64,000 nucleotides of DNA from Thermodesulfobacteriota bacterium (GTDB taxonomy: Bacteria; Desulfobacterota; Desulfarculia; JACQYL01), in the NCBI GenBank assembly GCA_963675595.2, contig CAXXLZ010000002.1:4480001-4544000 (forward strand). Direction: 5' to 3'. The notes under the pieces were generated by a model. It saw only the letters and a program-made list of their open reading frames with translations, did not search any database and was not told the DNA's origin. Each line of letters opens with the position of its first letter. Position 1 is the stretch's first letter. Positions 11,821-17,822 of this stretch are shown in pieces. The position numbers and the translations under genes were made by a program.

Positions 11821-12170
11821 TCTCTCCGGCAAGGTTCGGAGCGTGCCCGAAATCGTGCGACATGCACGACATCAGGGGTCGCCCCTGCATAACACGTTAC
11901 CAACGGCGGGGGCCGGTTCTCGGCCCCCGTATCCAATGATTCCCCTTTCATCGAGCGTCTTCTCACGTCTTGTCCTTTGACAAGGAAACGCCTGTTTTTC
12001 GTCTCCCTCCACCACGCCGTCACTCACGGCTCTTCCCGAGCTACGACTCCGAATATTAGGAAATCACTCACATTACGGTCACGGTTTTGTAATCCGCGTG
12101 TTGTTTATTCGGAAACGCAGCTCGAACCATTCATCCACAGTTGGAAAATCACCGAGGGAGATACACGCTC

Positions 12171-14687
12171 ATGAATTTGCGAAGATGGTCGCTGGGAGTG
12201 AAGATCGGAACCGGGTTCGCAGTGCTGATCCTGGTGTTTCTGCTGGTGGGCGGTGTCATGTTGTACGGAGTTGCGGACGTGGCCGAGCGGGCGGGGCAGG
12301 AAATTCGGAGCAATCGGTTGTCGGGGCTCTTTGTGGAACTCGAAATGGATCACTTGCAGTGGCTCAACCGCATAGGCGCGCTGCTCACGGGAAGCGGCGG
12401 CACTGAGAGTGCCGAGGACCTCAACCTGTCCGAGGGTGAAAGCGGTCTGGGTCAATGGCTGACCGGGGAGGAGCGACGAAGCGCGGAGACTCGGTTTTCC
12501 GGCGCTTCGAAATTTTTCACCGCCTTGGAGAGTCAAAACCGGGAGGTCTACGCGGCGGCGCGAGAAGTCGCGGAGGGATTCAGGACGCCTCATGCAGGCC
12601 TGATCTCAAGGCTCCAATCGGTGATGGATCGGCAGAATCTCTACGTCGGCAAACTGGCTCGTTCCGTGGAACAGGAAGCCGGAGCCATTCACACGTACCG
12701 GGTGTTGCTCCGAAACGCGCTGAAACAGGCCACTTCCGTACTCATGGCCTGTGAGCGGGAGCCCAGCTTCGGAGAAAGTGAAGAACGACGGGCCATCGGC
12801 ATGTCCATCATCAAGAACCTGCGCTACGGCATTGAAGGGGAGAACTATTTCTGGGTGACCGACCTGAAAGGCACGATGGTCATGCATCCCACGCGTTTCG
12901 AACTGTTCGCGCAGGACGTTTCGGAATACGAGGACAAGAACGGAAAGAAACTGTTCAAAGAAGCGCTGGCCATGGCCAAGGATTCGGGGTCCGGGTTTCT
13001 CACCTATTTCTGGCCCCCGGATTACGGGGAGGAGCCCAGGCCTGTTTTGGCCTACGTGGAATATTTCGATCCCTGGTATCTGGTGGTGGGCACGGGCGTT
13101 TTTCTCGACCCCGCGGATCCGGGATTGCCGGCGCGGGTCCGGGCGTTCGTAGCCGGGGAGTCCGTCAAACTGAGTGCGGCCGAAGACCCGGGCAAATTCG
13201 CTTTTCGCGAGTTCCTGGACGATCCTGAAACCGGTCTGCTGCGTGGGACGTTTCCCCTACTCCATGAGGCTCTTACCGATGCCGAGGAATCGTACGCCGA
13301 ATTTCTCCGGGCGGCGGCCCAAGTGGAGGAATTGGGCGGTCATATGGAAATCGAATCCGCCAAGCGAGTGATGGCGAACGACCTGGAAACCGCCAGGCAA
13401 CGAATGGAATCCCGGCTGGCGGAAGTGATCCGGGAAGAGGCCGCCATCCGGGCCGAAGCCGTGCACGCGGAACAGGCGTTCTCCGAGCGGCTGATTCCCG
13501 CGTCCCGCGAACTGGTTCGCCTGGTGGGGGAAACCAGAGAGCATTTCATCAACGCCGGCGGGAAACAAAACGTGGTGCTCGAAACCGCCCTGCGCACCAA
13601 GCAGCGGGTCATGGTGGGACTGTCCTTGGCCGTGCTCATCGCCTTGGGTGTGGCCGTGTTCATGATCCGAACCCTCTCCCGGATTCTGCTTCGGGTTTTC
13701 TCGTCCCTCAAGGAAGCCGGAGACGAAGTGGCCGGGACTTCCGGAAAGATTTACGAGTCCAGCCTGGATTTGGCCGAAAGCTCGTCCAAGCAGGCGGATC
13801 ACATCCGGGATATATCGACCACGCTCACCGAACTGGCTTCGAGCACGCAGTCCAACGCGGAACGGGCTCGGAACGCTCGTGGAATCGTGGGGGACTCCAT
13901 GGATGAGCTGAAAAAGGCGACCAAAACCTTGCGTTCTTTGACCGATTCCATGGAGGCCATTCGCCGGTCGGGTCAGGAGAGCAGGAAAATTATCGGCACC
14001 ATCGACGAAATCGCGTTTCAGACCAATCTGCTGGCTTTGAACGCGGCCGTGGAGGCGGCCAGGGCGGGCGAGGCGGGCGCCGGTTTCGGAGTGGTGGCCG
14101 AGGAGGTCCGGAATCTGGCTCGGCGAAGCGCCACGGCCGCGAGCGACACCGCATCCATCCTGGAACAGGCGGCGAGGTCCGTTGAGGCGGGGGCGATTTT
14201 GATTTCCGGCTCCACGGACGTGTTTACACGGATGGAGCGGGAAGCCCAACGGACCATGGAGCTCGTGGAAGAAATCGCGGGCGCATCGGAACGTCAGGCG
14301 CGGGACGTGCGGCACGTGAGCGATGCCGTGGCGGAAACCAACGAAACCGTGGCGGAAACGGCGGCCGCGGCCAAAGCCTCGTCCGAGACCTCGGACGGCA
14401 TGAATCTCCAGGTGGAGAAGATGCGCGACGTGGTGCTGGATATCTCCGCCCTGGTCCGATCCCGGAACGGCAAGGGACTTTTCGGAAGCGAACCGGCCCC
14501 GGCCCGCCTCGAACATCCCGTGCGGCCGTTGATCGAAGATCGGCCGAGCGGAGGAAACGGGCACAAGGAACCCTCGCCCGGAAATTCGGCGTCTCCTTCG
14601 GAGGAAGCCCAAAGCGCGGTCGTTCCTCGGGACGGAAAAAAGGCCCCGGTGGTCGTCGACTCGGAGTACCGCCTGCCGACATTTTAG
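12171..14687 (+). CDS. Methyl-accepting chemotaxis protein with CZB-like and Cache sensor regions
   Basis: Two TMs, [40 protein letters not shown] signalling tip, [15 protein letters not shown]...GFLTYFWP Cache motif. Confidence 0.93.
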
Positions 14688-14702
14688 GGCTTGGCGTAAG
14701 GA

Positions 14703-14743
14703 GCCTCTCCGACGGAGGCGGTGAGGCCCGCTTGAAATGTTTT
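14703..14743 (+). repeat. Repeat family A, small-hairpin half of a split copy
   Basis: GCCTCTCCGACGGAGGCGGTGAGGCCCG matches the start of the intact copies at 26097 and 27040. The second half resumes at 16452. Confidence 0.75.
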
Positions 14744-14849
14744 AGACATAATGGCTGCACGTGCAGGAAAGTAGGCCCGTCTCCTGCGTTGTTGGGTTAT
14801 GGTGCGAGTAATCAGCACGCCCATCGAACCAACACCAAGGAGGCAGGCC

Positions 14850-15956
14850 ATGACCGATTTTATCTATGTTGGATTGGATGTTCACCAGAAATCGATAGAC
14901 GTTGCCTTGGCCGAAGGGTCCCGTGATGGAGAAGTCCGATCTTACGGCAAGATCAACGGGGAGCCGTCGGATGTGGATCGATTGTTTCGCCGGCTGGGCT
15001 ACAAGAAGGATCGGCTTCGAGTGGTCTACGAAGCCGGCCCATGCGGCTACGTTCTTTACCGGCACCTGCATGCCCGGGGAATCCATTGCACGGTCGTGGC
15101 GCCCTCGCTGACGCCCCGACGAGCCGGCGATCGGATCAAGACGGATCGACGGGATGCGGTCACCCTGGCTCGTCTTCATCGGGCGGGAGAACTCACGGGG
15201 GTGTATGTTCCCCGTGTGGAGGACGAGGCGATACGGGATTTGACCAGGGCCCGGGAGGATGCCAAGAGCTCGGAGCGAAAGGCCAAACAGCGGCTCAACG
15301 CCTTTTTGCTGCGCCACGGTCGGAAGTACGGCGGGCCGCGGAAGTGGAGCCGGGCCCACCGGAGGTGGCTTTCGGACCAGTCGTTTGAACACCCGGCCCA
15401 GCAGATCGTTTTTCAGGAGTATATCGACACCATTGAAGAGTGCGAGCGCCGGGTGGCGCGATTGGTGGAGCAGATTGGCGAGCAGGTGGAGCACTGGCCT
15501 ATGAAACCGGTCGTGGAGGCCTTCCAATCGATGCGAGGCGTGTCGTTGATCGTGGCCGTCACTGTGGTGGCCGAAGTGGGCGACATGACGCGATTTGATG
15601 AGCCCGGGCAGTTGACGGCGTATCTGGGTTTGGTCCCCTCGGAGAGTTCCAGCGGAGGACGGCGCAAACAAGGAGGCATTACCAAGTCCGGCAACGGACA
15701 TGCGCGCCGGGTATTGATCCAGGGGGCCTGGACCTATCGCTATCCGCCCCGAGTGGGCCGCAGGCTGAGGGATCGGCGGGAGGAGGTGCCGTCCGAGGTC
15801 TGCAAGATCGGCTGGAAGGCCCAGCTGCGTCTGTGCGGCCGGTACCACCGGCTGATGGCCCGGGGTAAGCCGTCGCAAGTGGCCGTTACGGCCATTGCAC
15901 GGGAGATGGCCGCCTTTCTGTGGGCGATCGCCCGAGAGGTTCCCGTTGCCGCTTAA
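14850..15956 (+). CDS. IS110 family transposase/recombinase (DEDD RuvC-like plus C-terminal Tnp domain)
   Basis: YVGLDVHQ, VYEAGPCG, IKTDRRDA, YLGLVPSESSSGG...GGITKSGN. RBS AAGGAGG. Confidence 0.96.
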   Translation: MTDFIYVGLDVHQKSIDVALAEGSRDGEVRSYGKINGEPSDVDRLFRRLGYKKDRLRVVYEAGPCGYVLYRHLHARGIHCTVVAPSLTPRRAGDRIKTDRRDAVTLARLHRAGELTGVYVPRVEDEAIRDLTRAREDAKSSERKAKQRLNAFLLRHGRKYGGPRKWSRAHRRWLSDQSFEHPAQQIVFQEYIDTIEECERRVARLVEQIGEQVEHWPMKPVVEAFQSMRGVSLIVAVTVVAEVGDMTRFDEPGQLTAYLGLVPSESSSGGRRKQGGITKSGNGHARRVLIQGAWTYRYPPRVGRRLRDRREEVPSEVCKIGWKAQLRLCGRYHRLMARGKPSQVAVTAIAREMAAFLWAIAREVPVAA

Positions 15957-16275
15957 CTTCTCATCAAGTCCACATCGTTCGATTTGGAAGGAGGACGGCG
16001 CCGTAAAGGAGGGAAACACGGGCTTCAACCTGAGAGCAGGGGCGCAACCGCGGTTAGGAGAATCCTCGTGACCTGTTAGGAGATCAGGCATCTGCCGAAT
16101 CCTCGTCTGTAGAAAGAGGCAGCTCCGCGACGAACCAAGTCCGGCGGTAACCAACCCGCGAATATCAGCATGATCCACCGTCGCTATGCAGGTTCCGCCT
16201 CTGTCCGCAGGTTGAAGTTCCATAAATGGTAGCCATACCCCAACGCTACAAGGGGCGGAAGAATGCTGCGCCCTA
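15957..16275 (+). ncRNA. Putative bridge RNA/seekRNA-encoding non-coding region
   Basis: About 320 nt between the tnp stop and the right inverted repeat. Contains CCTGTTA (reverse complement of target TAACAGG) and ATATCAG (circle-junction sequence). RNA ends unknown. Confidence 0.7.
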
Positions 16276-16295
16276 TTGACGTGTGCAGCCATATC

Positions 16296-16451
16296 AACAG
16301 GCTGTTGAAAAACGCGATCTGCCGCGTTGCGCTTCATCCCTCGTCACTGCGACGTACTCTATGTACGTCTCATTCCTCAGGATTTGCGCGCCTTGCATCT
16401 CATCGTTTTTCAGCAGCCTGCTGCAACCGGCTTTTTTCAACGGGCGGTTAA
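16296..16451. repeat. Repeat family B (MITE-like, about 125-155 bp), copy 1
   Basis: CAGGCTGTTGAAAAACG...CGTTTTTCAGCAGCCTG terminal stem, conserved core CTTCATCCCTCGTCACTGCG...GTAC...GTACG...CGCGCCTTGCAT, tail ending TTTTTTCAACGGGCGGTTAA. Confidence 0.85.
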
Positions 16452-16493
16452 GGGGGGAGCACGGGGGGAACTTTTTCAAAAGTTCCCCCCGTG
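16452..16493 (+). repeat. Repeat family A, large-hairpin half of the split copy
   Basis: CACGGGGGGAACTTTTTCAAAAGTTCCCCCCGTG hairpin preceded by a G run. Confidence 0.75.
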
Positions 16494-16523
16494 AATGTCA
16501 ATTTTGATTCTTGCCGAGACCGG

Positions 16524-17822
16524 CTACTCCGTCACCATCTGCCGGCAACGGGTTTCCCGGGTCAGGCTCAACAGGATCACCGACACCAGGGTCCAGGCGG
16601 TCATGAGCAGAAACGCGCTTCGGAATGCTTCCAGGTCGTAGATGCGCACTTCTCCGTTAAGAGCGCCCCGCCATTTCAGGTCCAATACCCATCCCATGAT
16701 CGGCTGGAGAATCATGGGGCCCATCATCACCCCCATATTGCATACCCCGGCCACGGTGCCCGCCAATTTTGGAGGCACGGATTCCTTGGCGTAGGCGAAG
16801 CCCAGGATGATGCATCCCGAGGCGAATCCCACCACGGCCAGCAGCACGGCCAGAACCGAGAAAGGAAGGGCTTCCACGTAGAGAATCACGCCCCACCCGC
16901 CCAAAGCCACCAGGCTTCCAGCCAGATAGATGGGTTTTCTGCGATGGATGCGGTCGGACAGGTAGCCCAGCACCGGACCTCCGAGGGCCCAGGCCACGAG
17001 CAGGGTCGAGGTGAACAGCGCGCTTTCCGACTGGGACAGGCCGTAATGCGTGGACAAGAAGGGCACTCCCCACAGGCCGGAGAAGGCCAAAACCGGACCC
17101 ACCACTCCGCCGGGGGCCAGGGTGAGGAGCCAAGTGTTGCGATACCGGAAAATGGCCCGCAATCCGGACAATGCGGCCCCGAACGTGGCCCCGCCCTTTT
17201 GGCGGGTCGATTCATGGGCGTAGCCTTCGTATCCCTTGTCCGAAGGATCGTCCCGCACCACCGCCCACACGGCTGCGGTGAGCAGGAGGGAGACGCACGC
17301 CGATACGAACATGACGGAGCGCCATCCAAAGGCATTCACCAACAGGCGGAGCGGGACCCCGGCGGTGACCGCTCCCAGAATCCCGCAAAAAAGAGCCATC
17401 CCGCTCACCATGGCGAAGCGCTGTGGCGGGAACCAGTGGGAAGCCAGTTTGAGCAAAGCGACCCACGCCACGGCCACGGAGCCCCCGATGAGAAGCCTGC
17501 CCAGGTCGGCCAGAGCGATGTCCGGGGCCAGGGCGAAGAGAAAGGTCCCCAAGGCGGACACCAGCGCGCCGGCGGCCAGCAGCTTTCTGGGACCCAGATG
17601 GTCCGCCAGGATTCCGGTGGGAATCTGCATGAACACGTAGCTGTAGAAATAGAAGGCGGAGAGATTGCCGAGCACCGCGGCTCCGATGTGAAACTCGGCC
17701 ATGAGCAGGTCCGTCATGACCGCGGGCGCCACCCTCTGGTAGAAGCCTGTGCAGTAGAAGAGCGCTCCCAGTCCCCAGATCATCCAGGACAGGCGGGCCG
17801 GGGGAAATTTTTCGGAATGCAT
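16524..17822 (-). CDS. MFS transporter
   Basis: About 12 hydrophobic segments, MFS motif A GILADHLGPRK and GYLSDRIHRRK. Start at 17822 or 17864; the longer ORF extension runs through repeats. Confidence 0.92.
   Translation of the reverse strand: MHSEKFPPARLSWMIWGLGALFYCTGFYQRVAPAVMTDLLMAEFHIGAAVLGNLSAFYFYSYVFMQIPTGILADHLGPRKLLAAGALVSALGTFLFALAPDIALADLGRLLIGGSVAVAWVALLKLASHWFPPQRFAMVSGMALFCGILGAVTAGVPLRLLVNAFGWRSVMFVSACVSLLLTAAVWAVVRDDPSDKGYEGYAHESTRQKGGATFGAALSGLRAIFRYRNTWLLTLAPGGVVGPVLAFSGLWGVPFLSTHYGLSQSESALFTSTLLVAWALGGPVLGYLSDRIHRRKPIYLAGSLVALGGWGVILYVEALPFSVLAVLLAVVGFASGCIILGFAYAKESVPPKLAGTVAGVCNMGVMMGPMILQPIMGWVLDLKWRGALNGEVRIYDLEAFRSAFLLMTAWTLVSVILLSLTRETRCRQMVTE

What the first reader, a model, noticed from the sequence alone, without database searches (positions are those of the whole stretch)
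14744..16302. IS110/IS1111 element whose 3' non-coding region carries candidate guides for its target and donor (bridge/seek RNA)
Seen: an intact transposase, sub-terminal inverted repeats and a ~320-nt non-coding region. Removing 14744-16295 restores ...ATGTTTT|AACAGGCTG; joining the ends gives ...CCATATC|AGACATA. The non-coding region contains CCTGTTA (16072-16078, exact reverse complement of target TAACAGG), ATATCAG (16162-16168, identical to the donor junction), GGTTAG (16052-16057, weak left-target match) and GAATCCTCGT twice. Known: IS110/IS1111 recombinases use such RNAs to specify target and donor. Inference: this is an RNA-guided recombinase aimed at the end of a resident MITE. Each 7-mer alone has roughly a 2 percent chance of occurring in 320 nt.
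Basis: partly seen in the sequence, partly recalled or inferred. Interest (0 to 1): 0.8.

Follow-up and report, generated by a model that had tools for sequence, protein, structure and literature searches.

The report
IS1111-type insertion sequence with bridge RNA
This is a jumping gene of the IS1111 type that carries its own small guide RNA for picking its landing site, here the edge of a short repeat; it is a well-supported but ordinary example of a mechanism first described in 2024.

Summary
Window 14744-16295 is an intact IS1111-group element. It has a DEDD transposase, 10-bp sub-terminal inverted repeats with 7-nt and 3-nt terminal extensions, and a 339-nt 3' non-coding region. The genome holds 5 copies.

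- Target guide: CCTGTTA (16072-16078) is the complement of the target T|AACAGG.
- Donor guide: ATATCAG (16162-16168) equals the circle junction ATATC|AG.

In 44 related elements with different targets, the homologous RNA positions change together with their own flanks. With targets permuted, 0 of 10,000 trials reached the observed match. The donor motif changes together with the element's right end.

Inside this genome, RNA base 16076 (T in this copy, A in the other four) matches flank base 16297. That base is A here and T in three copies; the fifth copy is mismatched.

The RNA spans about 200 nt (16020-16223). It folds into a covariation-supported structure with a target loop and a donor multiloop.

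- GGTTAG (16052-16057) is not a guide. The left-target strand is TCTGT (16106-16110) and matches this copy's flank poorly (2 of 5).
- The repeated GAATCCTCGT is two stem strands, not a repeat with its own role.

Four of 5 copies sit at the end of a MITE.

Verdict: a new member of a known kind (bridge/seek RNA, published 2024). Interest is moderate to low.

The parts
14744..16295 (+). Whole IS1111-group element (1552 bp). The ends are exact only to within the 1-2 nt core A(G).
   Evidence: Five copies share these ends and have unrelated left flanks. In the relatives, the flank bases at -1 and +1 change together with the guide (L080, L131, L089).
14744..14750 (+). 7-nt left terminal extension AGACATA, outside the inverted repeat. 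It contributes most of a -10-like CATAAT (14747-14752).
   Evidence: An AGAC... extension followed by an inverted repeat that begins with AT (ATG in nearly all) was found in 44 of 83 relatives whose ends could be located.
14751..14760 (+). Left sub-terminal inverted repeat ATGGCTGCAC
   Evidence: 11 of 14 positions agree with the right repeat.
14850..15956 (+). Transposase/recombinase gene, 368 aa. AAGGAGG lies upstream of the ATG. The protein carries the GLVPSESSSG motif.
   Evidence: The homologues are also 368-372 aa and begin at the same residue.
15887..16109 (+). Mosaic block. It holds 22 of the 26 substitutions specific to this copy, and it covers the end of tnp, the spacer and the whole target loop.
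   Evidence: my count from its list. Both versions also appear as separate 237-nt contigs in runs X1 and X2 (table 8).
16020..16223 (+). Bridge/seek RNA region. The outer helix P1 pairs 16024-16048 with 16192-16216.
   Evidence: Alignment A2 of 44 sequences. There are 45 consensus pairs, 36 of them with compensatory changes. 92.9% of cells are paired against 74.6% in shuffles, with 0 of 500 shuffles as high.
16068..16078 (+). Target loop, 5' strand. The right-target guide 16072-16078 (CCUGUUA) is the complement of the top strand T(14743)|AACAGG(16296-16301).
   Evidence: Base 16076 and flank base 16297 co-vary among the genomic copies.
16105..16115 (+). Target loop, 3' strand. The left-target guide UCUGU (16106-16110) has the same sense as the left flank. 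It is followed by AGAAA (16111-16115), which resembles the element's left end AGACA (core plus a handshake-like segment).
   Evidence: 16109 is identical to target -2 in 0.86 of sequences and 16110 to -1 in 0.95; own flank matches 2.16 of 4 positions against 1.14 for other flanks, with 0 of 10,000 permutations as high. In this copy only 2 of 5 positions match.
16127..16184 (+). Donor multiloop closed by helix P4 (16127-16132 with 16179-16184). It contains the 5' strand 16133-16143, the hairpin 16144-16159 and the 3' strand 16160-16178.
16162..16168 (+). Left-donor guide AUAUCAG. It equals the right end ATATC plus the first two bases AG of the left end, which is the circle junction.
   Evidence: Positions 16164-16166 track the last three bases of the right end in the relatives, through the variants ATC, ATG and GAG.
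16276..16281 (+). TTGACG, a -35-like hexamer. On the circle it lies 17 nt upstream of CATAAT (14747-14752), which would form a junction promoter.
   Evidence: Read. TTGAC is aligned in 36 of 45 rows. No + strand promoter-like site was found in the integrated copy.
16283..16295 (+). Right sub-terminal inverted repeat GTGCAGCCAT (16283-16292) plus the 3-nt extension ATC (16293-16295).
16298..16447 (.). Resident 150-bp MITE whose left end is the target. It is flanked by TTAA (14742-14743 plus 16296-16297, and 16448-16451). The IS sits inside the left TTAA.
   Evidence: 152 plus 54 ends of the two MITE end types in the genome.

Best explanation
Window 14744-16295 is an active-looking IS1111-group insertion sequence.

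Its DEDD recombinase is predicted to work with a structured RNA of about 200 nt, made from the 3' non-coding region (16020-16223). The RNA has two recognition sites.

Target recognition. An internal loop reads the target on both strands.
- Its 5' strand (16072-16078) pairs with the top strand of T|A plus five bases of the right flank.
- Its 3' strand (16106-16110) pairs with the bottom strand of the last few bases of the left flank. It then continues into AGAAA, which mimics the element's own left end.

Donor recognition. A multiloop carries AUAUCAG (16162-16168), which matches the junction formed when the element circularises (ATATC|AG).

Expression. Circularisation would also bring TTGACG and CATAAT together, 17 nt apart, to form a promoter that could drive the transposase and the RNA.

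What is shown here: the anatomy, the five copies, the RNA structure, the guide-target covariation and the guide-donor covariation.

What is inferred from the published family mechanism: that the RNA is made, that it binds the protein, and that it directs recombination at a 1-2 nt core, A(G).
For: Family membership. The protein matches the Pfam and NCBIfam models.

Copies. Five copies have identical ends. Their right flanks read A[A/T/T/T/G]CAG[G/C]C.

Covariation within the genome. RNA base 16076 is T in this copy and A in the other four. Flank base 16297 is A here, T in three copies and G in one. The guide therefore matches its own flank in 4 of 5 copies.

Relatives. 44 of 83 related loci have the same end architecture.

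RNA structure. There are 45 consensus pairs, 36 with compensatory changes. 92.9% of cells pair against 74.6% in shuffles, and 0 of 500 shuffles were as high. Sliding the partners by 1-3 columns lowers pairing to 38-47%.

Right-target guide. Over 38 distinct guides, the guide matches its own target at a mean of 5.0 of 6 variable positions, against 2.63 for other targets. 0 of 10,000 permutations were as high.

Left-target guide. Own flank 2.16 of 4 against 1.14 for other flanks, again with 0 of 10,000 permutations as high.

Position-by-position signal.
- 16078 to 16073 are complementary to target positions -1 to +5 in 0.77-0.93 of sequences.
- 16109 and 16110 are identical to target -2 and -1.
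- 16164-16166 are identical to the last three bases of the right end in 0.82-1.0 of sequences.

Donor motif.
- 36 of 37 rows with right end ATATC have ATATCAG.
- The one row with ATATG has ATATGAG.
- 3 of 3 rows of one subgroup with right end ATGAG have ATGAGAG.

Published mechanism. IS1111 seekRNAs carry a top-strand match placed 5' of a bottom-strand match, and the two overlap at the insertion point (PMC11187229, sections 9 and 10 read). Bridge RNAs were predicted in the right end of 93% of IS1111 elements, often with donor-binding bases in a multiloop (PMC11208160, passages read).
Against: - No RNA evidence was obtained.
- In this copy the left-target strand matches only 2 of 5 flank bases.
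- Copy 5 has 5 of 7 right-guide matches and copy 4 has 6 of 7.
- A guide for the element's left end (the right donor) could not be shown. The best pairing register scored 4.31 of 6 for own ends against 4.32 for other ends.
- In seven relatives with right end CATGAG or CATAAG, the donor motif differs by one or two bases.
- TATCAGG occurs 526 times and TAACAGG 206 times in the genome. The 7-nt guide alone therefore does not explain why 4 of 5 copies sit at MITE ends.
- Related sequences are not independent, so the permutation counts overstate the significance.
- The flanks of the metagenomic relatives rest on my detection of their ends.
- The single-sequence fold is only weakly better than shuffles (z = -1.9; 4 of 100 shuffles fold as well).
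Confidence: 0.88

Rival explanations
1. The protein, not the RNA, chooses the site, for example by recognising the hairpin-forming end of the MITE. The conserved 3' RNA would be only a structural cofactor or a regulator of transposase expression.
For: Four of 5 copies are at MITE ends, although the 7-mers occur 206-526 times in the genome. The left-target match in this copy is poor. IS1111 members are known for landing in REP, attC and terminal-repeat sequences that can fold (PMC11187229, section 8 read).
Against: The guide positions change together with the flanks across 38 distinct guides. This includes the rare changes of the near-constant T at -1 and A at +1 (L080, L131). Copy 4 lies in unique, non-MITE DNA that still carries T|ATCAGC. 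The excess at MITE ends can also arise because insertions elsewhere are lost to selection.
Confidence: 0.07
2. The matches of 16072-16078 and 16162-16168 are coincidences in a GC-rich non-coding tail, and the element is a conventional IS with no RNA component.
For: A 7-mer match in 320 nt is not rare once all windows and both strands are allowed. No Rfam family matched the region.
Against: The RNA structure has 36 of 45 pairs with compensatory changes. The guide-flank and guide-end covariation reached 0 of 10,000 permutations. The T/A switch within the genome is matched by A/T in the flank.
Confidence: 0.02
3. The element is a decayed or immobile relic. The RNA and guides are ancestral features that no longer work in this genome.
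For: The left-target strand is mismatched in this copy. No RNA data were obtained. No empty site or circle junction was recovered from the laid contigs.
Against: All five copies have open 368-aa frames at 99-100% identity and intact ends. The copies are 97-98% identical over the element. Two guide variants persist in two coded organisms' runs.
Confidence: 0.03

Closest known systems
IS1111-family seekRNA elements (ISEc11, ISPa11, ISKpn4; Siddiquee et al. 2024, PMC11187229)
   Same: It has a DEDD transposase, sub-terminal inverted repeats with short terminal extensions, and a long non-coding region downstream of tnp. The RNA carries a top-strand match placed 5' of a bottom-strand match, and the two overlap at the insertion point. 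The target is a repeat element. A promoter forms only on the circle.
   Different: The transposase is 368 aa, against the 330-350 aa quoted for IS1111 transposases in that paper (section 6). The target is the TTAA-flanked end of a MITE rather than a REP, attC or Tn21 terminal repeat. The nearest annotated plasmid relatives are only about 60% identical. I could not compare it with named ISfinder entries.
IS621/IS110 bridge RNA (Durrant et al. 2024, PMC11208160; Hiraizumi et al. 2024, seen in a search listing only)
   Same: A single RNA has one loop for the target and one for the donor. Each loop is read on both strands around a short shared core. A segment of the target loop resembles the donor end (handshake-like).
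   Different: Here the RNA is at the 3' end, not the 5' end. The order of the top-strand and bottom-strand guides is reversed. The donor site is a multiloop, and only one donor guide strand could be shown. The shared core appears to be A or AG rather than CT (the CT core is recalled, not checked here). The sub-terminal repeats are long (10 bp).
ISPpu9/ISPpu10-type IS110-family elements in REP sequences (PMC12288879, abstract in a search listing only)
   Same: Multiple copies are inserted at a fixed position of an abundant short genomic repeat, with a small RNA gene downstream of the transposase.
   Different: Not compared at sequence level here.

Membership tests
IS1111 group of the IS110 family | DEDD (RuvC-like) N-terminal domain plus the PF02371 C-terminal domain | tested here: met
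   PF01548 at 4.5e-17 and PF02371 at 3.3e-22. NF033542 at 276.8 bits against a cut-off of 140.
IS1111 group of the IS110 family | Sub-terminal inverted repeats with a few extra bases outside them | tested here: met
   ATGGCTGCAC at 14751-14760 and GTGCAGCCAT at 16283-16292. There are 7 nt outside on the left and 3 nt on the right. The same layout is seen in 44 of 83 relatives.
IS1111 group of the IS110 family | The long non-coding region lies downstream of tnp | tested here: met
   339 nt downstream (15957-16295) against 106 nt upstream (14744-14849).
IS1111 group of the IS110 family | GL-P----S(T)G motif in the C-terminal domain (PMC11187229, section 6) | tested here: met
   GLVPSESSSG is read in the translation. 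G260, P263 and G269 are invariant in alignment A1.
IS1111 group of the IS110 family | No target-site duplication; site-specific insertion | tested here: met
   No direct repeat flanks any of the 5 copies. All five lie at T|A-N-CAG.
IS1111 group of the IS110 family | The transposase branches with IS1111 members in a phylogeny | not tested
Bridge/seek RNA | Conserved structured RNA in the non-coding end | tested here: met
   45 pairs, 36 with compensatory changes. 0 of 500 shuffles reached the observed values.
Bridge/seek RNA | [quoted passage not shown] | tested here: met
   In this particular copy the bottom-strand (left) match is only 2 of 5.
Bridge/seek RNA | A loop that matches the donor (circle junction) on both sides | tested here: inconclusive
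   The right-end side (ATATC|AG) is met and co-varies. A guide for the left end showed no own-versus-other difference.
Bridge/seek RNA | The RNA is made, binds the recombinase and is needed for transposition | not testable with these tools
   No RNA run was available to lay. This needs bench work.

The most novel reading that the evidence does not exclude
The whole target loop behaves as a swappable cassette.

A 223-nt block (15887-16109) ends exactly at the left-target strand. In this copy it is about 10% diverged from the other four copies, while the rest of the element differs by 0.35% or less. This looks like recombination with a diverged relative that replaced the target loop but kept the donor loop and the recombinase.

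The result is two co-resident guide variants with a one-base difference in specificity (TAACAGG against TATCAGG), each found next to the matching flank.

A second open point: 4 of 5 copies are at MITE ends, far more than a 7-nt guide predicts. This may point to an extra determinant, such as DNA structure at the MITE end.
Probability: 0.4. Interest if true: 0.45.

Novelty: new member of a known kind. Interest (0 to 1): 0.3.

Why it matters
The finding adds a cleanly documented, uncharacterised clade of IS1111-type RNA-guided recombinases, with the end pattern AGACATA...ATC.

For this clade, sequence alone now gives a structural model of the RNA, the register of the right-target guide, the left-target guide and one donor guide, and a likely 1-2 nt core. 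That is useful for annotation and as a candidate for programmable recombination work.

It also gives a natural within-genome example of single-base retargeting. It does not change the picture of how the family works.

Tried and rejected
Rfam. Nothing relevant came up in 14000-17000 at E up to 1; there were only two chance hits outside the element.

DNA search with the non-coding region. In the 60 other genomes searched (kinship from same family to same class) there was no match. Only the own genome matched.

Single-protein scan of genome contigs. It gave only 3 loci. One (L037) was usable, one (L036) lacked the ends, and one (L038) was truncated.

Relatives dropped. Of 83 related loci, 39 were left out of all guide counts because no pair of ends could be located in the DNA held (short contigs). 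L088 was dropped from the donor and mutual-information analyses because its 'right end' was mis-assigned inside the RNA. L101 was left out of A2 because it was truncated. Own copies 3-5 were left out of A2 as duplicates of copy 2.

Expression. No RNA holder was listed.

Contigs of four runs laid on 14200-16900. No contig bridged a true empty site or a circle junction. One joint, 14737 to 16296, has unknown letters in between. I read it as another copy of the left-flank repeat next to a MITE, not as an excision product.

Guide for the element's left end. I tested the register in which the RNA's AGUC(AU) pairs with the left repeat. Own ends scored 4.31 of 6 and other ends 4.32, so there is no covariation and the point is unresolved.

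GGTTAG as left-target guide. It gave no signal and is rejected.

Single-sequence fold. The z-score is only -1.9, which is weak on its own.

I mistyped the structure string, shifting the eight outermost pairs by one column. One search repeats the count with the correct string, and only one search is used.

Supplementary files of the two papers were not asked for. Supplementary Table 5 of PMC11208160 and the target logos of PMC11187229 may already list this clade.
Full report
**What is in the sequence**

The region 14744-16295 reads AGACATA-ATGGCTGCAC ... GTGCAGCCAT-ATC. It has these parts:
- a 7-nt left extension and a 10-bp inverted repeat;
- an ORF at 14850-15956, preceded by AAGGAGG;
- a 339-nt non-coding tail;
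- the inverted-repeat partner and a 3-nt right extension.

The 368-aa product matches Pfam DEDD_Tnp_IS110 and Transposase_20. It also matches NCBIfam NF033542, 'IS110 family RNA-guided transposase', at 276.8 bits against a cut-off of 140.

**Copies and boundaries**

The window's genome holds five full copies at 97-100% DNA identity. All have open 368-aa frames.

All five start with AGACATAATGG after unrelated left flanks that end in T. All five end with GCAGCCATATC. The right flanks read AACAGGCTG, ATCAGGCTG, ATCAGGCTG, ATCAGCCTG and AGCAGCCCG. There is no target duplication.

In relatives, the flank bases at -1 and +1 occasionally differ, and the RNA then differs with them (L080, L131, L089). 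The A at +1 (often AG) is also the first base of the element. Ends and target share a 1-2 nt core, so the boundary cannot be placed more exactly than that.

**What the target is**

The right flank is the end of a 150-bp MITE (16298-16447).
- A 17-mer of its end matches 260 places at up to 3 mismatches.
- Stricter patterns find 152 and 54 ends of its two end types.

The left flank belongs to a second family of terminator-like repeats with more than 60 copies. The MITE had inserted into that repeat with a TTAA on each side, and the IS sits inside the left TTAA.

Copies 1, 2, 3 and 5 are at MITE ends. Copy 4 is in unique DNA that still reads T|ATCAGC.

**The within-genome test**

Among the five copies, 40 columns vary. 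Column 16076 is T here and A in the other four, so the candidate guide reads CCTGTTA here and CCTGATA in the others. The paired flank base 16297 is A here, T in copies 2-4 and G in copy 5. Four of 5 copies therefore match at this position.

By my count from the list:
- 26 substitutions are specific to this copy.
- 22 of them lie in 15887-16109 (223 nt).
- 4 lie in the 1143 nt before that block.
- None lies after it.

The block ends at the last variable base of the target loop. Both versions of the block also appear as separate 237-nt contigs (0 against 20 differences) in runs of two coded organisms (table 8). The two variants are therefore not an assembly artefact.

**Relatives**

A protein search found thousands of homologues. 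The best 120 listed are 60-90% identical and come mostly from metagenomes.

A profile scan of metagenome contigs returned 80 loci at 51-63% identity. A genome scan added 3 more. In 44 of these 83 I could locate both ends: AGAC plus three bases, an inverted repeat that begins with AT (ATG in nearly all), its partner ending in AT, and three more bases, usually ATC. The other 39 were too short or truncated and were dropped.

**RNA structure**

The tails align well. RNAalifold gives 45 pairs, and 36 of them have compensatory changes.

Counted on the named structure, 92.9% of cells pair, against 74.6% in shuffles, and 0 of 500 shuffles were as high on all five measures. Pairing falls to 38-47% when the partners are slid by 1-3 columns.

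In window coordinates the layout is:
- P1: 16024-16048 with 16192-16216.
- P2: 16057-16060 with 16123-16126, and 16064-16067 with 16116-16119.
- Target loop, an internal loop: 5' strand 16068-16078 and 3' strand 16105-16115.
- P3: about 16079-16082 with 16101-16104, topped by a small hairpin.
- P4: 16127-16132 with 16179-16184, closing the donor multiloop.
- Donor multiloop: 5' strand 16133-16143, hairpin 16144-16159, 3' strand 16160-16178.

Each stands just before one strand of the target loop.

**Guides**

For each relative I read the columns homologous to 16069-16078 and compared their reverse complement with that relative's own junction. Most rows match for 7-9 bases, on quite different targets. 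Examples are TAGAGCGTT, TAGGATGG, TAACGCTG, TAGCCTCCT and GAGGAGTG.

Right-target guide, over 38 distinct guides:
- The own target matches 5.0 of 6 variable positions on average. The distribution is 15 at 6, 12 at 5, 8 at 4, 2 at 3 and 1 at 2.
- Other targets match 2.63.
- 0 of 10,000 permutations reach the observed mean.

Left-target guide (the 3' strand): it matches the last bases of the left flank in the same sense. Own flank scores 2.16 of 4 against 1.14 for other flanks, again with 0 of 10,000 permutations as high.

A mutual-information scan recovers the same register independently.
- 16078 to 16073 are complementary to target -1 to +5.
- 16109 and 16110 are identical to target -2 and -1.

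GGTTAG (16052-16057) gives no such signal. In this copy the left strand UCUGU matches GTTTT at only 2 of 5 positions.

**Donor**

In one search, 36 of the 37 rows whose right end is ATATC carry ATATCAG at the position of 16162-16168. The exception is L128, with ATCTCAG.
- The one element ending in ATATG has ATATGAG.
- Three elements ending in ATGAG have ATGAGAG.
- Six ending in CATGAG and one ending in CATAAG have CATCAGAG, which is one or two bases off.

In one search, positions 16165 and 16166 are identical to the last two bases of the right end in all 44 sequences, and 16164 to the third-last in 0.82.

The motif is therefore the circle junction (right end plus AG) in the sense of the top strand.

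I could not show a guide for the left end. The best register pairs 4.31 of 6 for own ends and 4.32 for other ends. This reflects conservation on both sides and is not covariation.

The AGAAA after the left-target strand resembles the left end AGACA. In relatives it reads AGAGC, AGACC or AGACA. I read it as a handshake-like segment by analogy with IS621; that analogy is recalled, not tested.

**Expression**

TTGACG (16276-16281) and CATAAT (14747-14752) lie 17 nt apart once the ends are joined. TTGAC is aligned in 36 of 45 rows. The consensus scan finds no + strand promoter inside the integrated copy.

This fits the published statement that the only promoter seen in such elements is the one formed on the circle (PMC11187229, section 8).

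**Comparison with what is known**

From the seekRNA paper I read sections 6, 8, 9, 10 and 13. It describes exactly this arrangement for IS1111 members: a downstream non-coding region, and an RNA with a top-strand match placed 5' of a bottom-strand match, the two overlapping at the insertion point. It also shows natural and engineered retargeting.

From the bridge-RNA paper I read passages found by term search. It predicted bridge RNAs in the right end of 93% of IS1111 elements, often with donor-binding bases in a multiloop.

The present element fits both descriptions. It differs only in detail:
- a 368-aa protein;
- a MITE-end target;
- an A(G) core;
- about 60% identity to the nearest annotated plasmid copies, which are in Azospirillum.

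**What remains open**

- TATCAGG and TAACAGG occur 526 and 206 times in the genome, yet 4 of 5 copies are at MITE ends. Loss of harmful insertions by selection, or an extra determinant, could explain this.
- The diverged 223-nt block suggests that the target loop was exchanged by recombination. I could not fetch the closest relatives to test this.
- No RNA data and no empty site or circle junction were obtained.

**Verdict**

The element is a new member of a known kind.

Noticed in passing
window 16298-16447, and about 200 ends genome-wide: An abundant 150-bp MITE with inverted ends CAGGCYGTTGAAAAA. It is flanked here by TTAA. TA, CA or TG often precedes the ends one base upstream. I found 152 ends of one type and 54 of the other.
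   Followed up: partly
window 14700-14743 and 16452-16495: A second repeat family with more than 60 copies. It consists of a CCTCTCCGCC...GGCGGTGAGG hairpin, a short palindrome and a strong GGGGGGAACTTTTT...AAAAGTTCCCCCC terminator-like hairpin. Here it follows the chemoreceptor gene and has been split by the MITE plus the IS.
   Followed up: partly
own genome, loci L044-L051 (for example G000:C2:3244346-3245209): A second, unrelated IS110-family element. Its transposase is 32% identical over residues 5-297 and it is present in 8 identical-scoring copies. At least one copy lies next to a copy of the terminator-like repeat.
   Followed up: no
loci L064, L091, L095, L101, L103, L106, L112, L114, L116, L128: Many metagenomic relatives from different samples share the target CCT|AACGC, followed about 10 nt later by GAGCCGCG-like sequence. 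This suggests that this clade often targets REP-like repeats in other hosts too.
   Followed up: no
loci L094 and L110: Two distant relatives carry nearly the same right-target guide as this element (reverse complement TAACAGGCA). They sit at T|AGCAGG. This shows the same mismatch at +2 as copy 5 here, so position +2 may tolerate mismatches.
   Followed up: no
window 12141-14687: An 848-aa ORF on the + strand ends 57 nt upstream of the IS. It looks like a methyl-accepting chemotaxis protein, judged only from reading its translation. Read-through from it could transcribe the integrated element.
   Followed up: no
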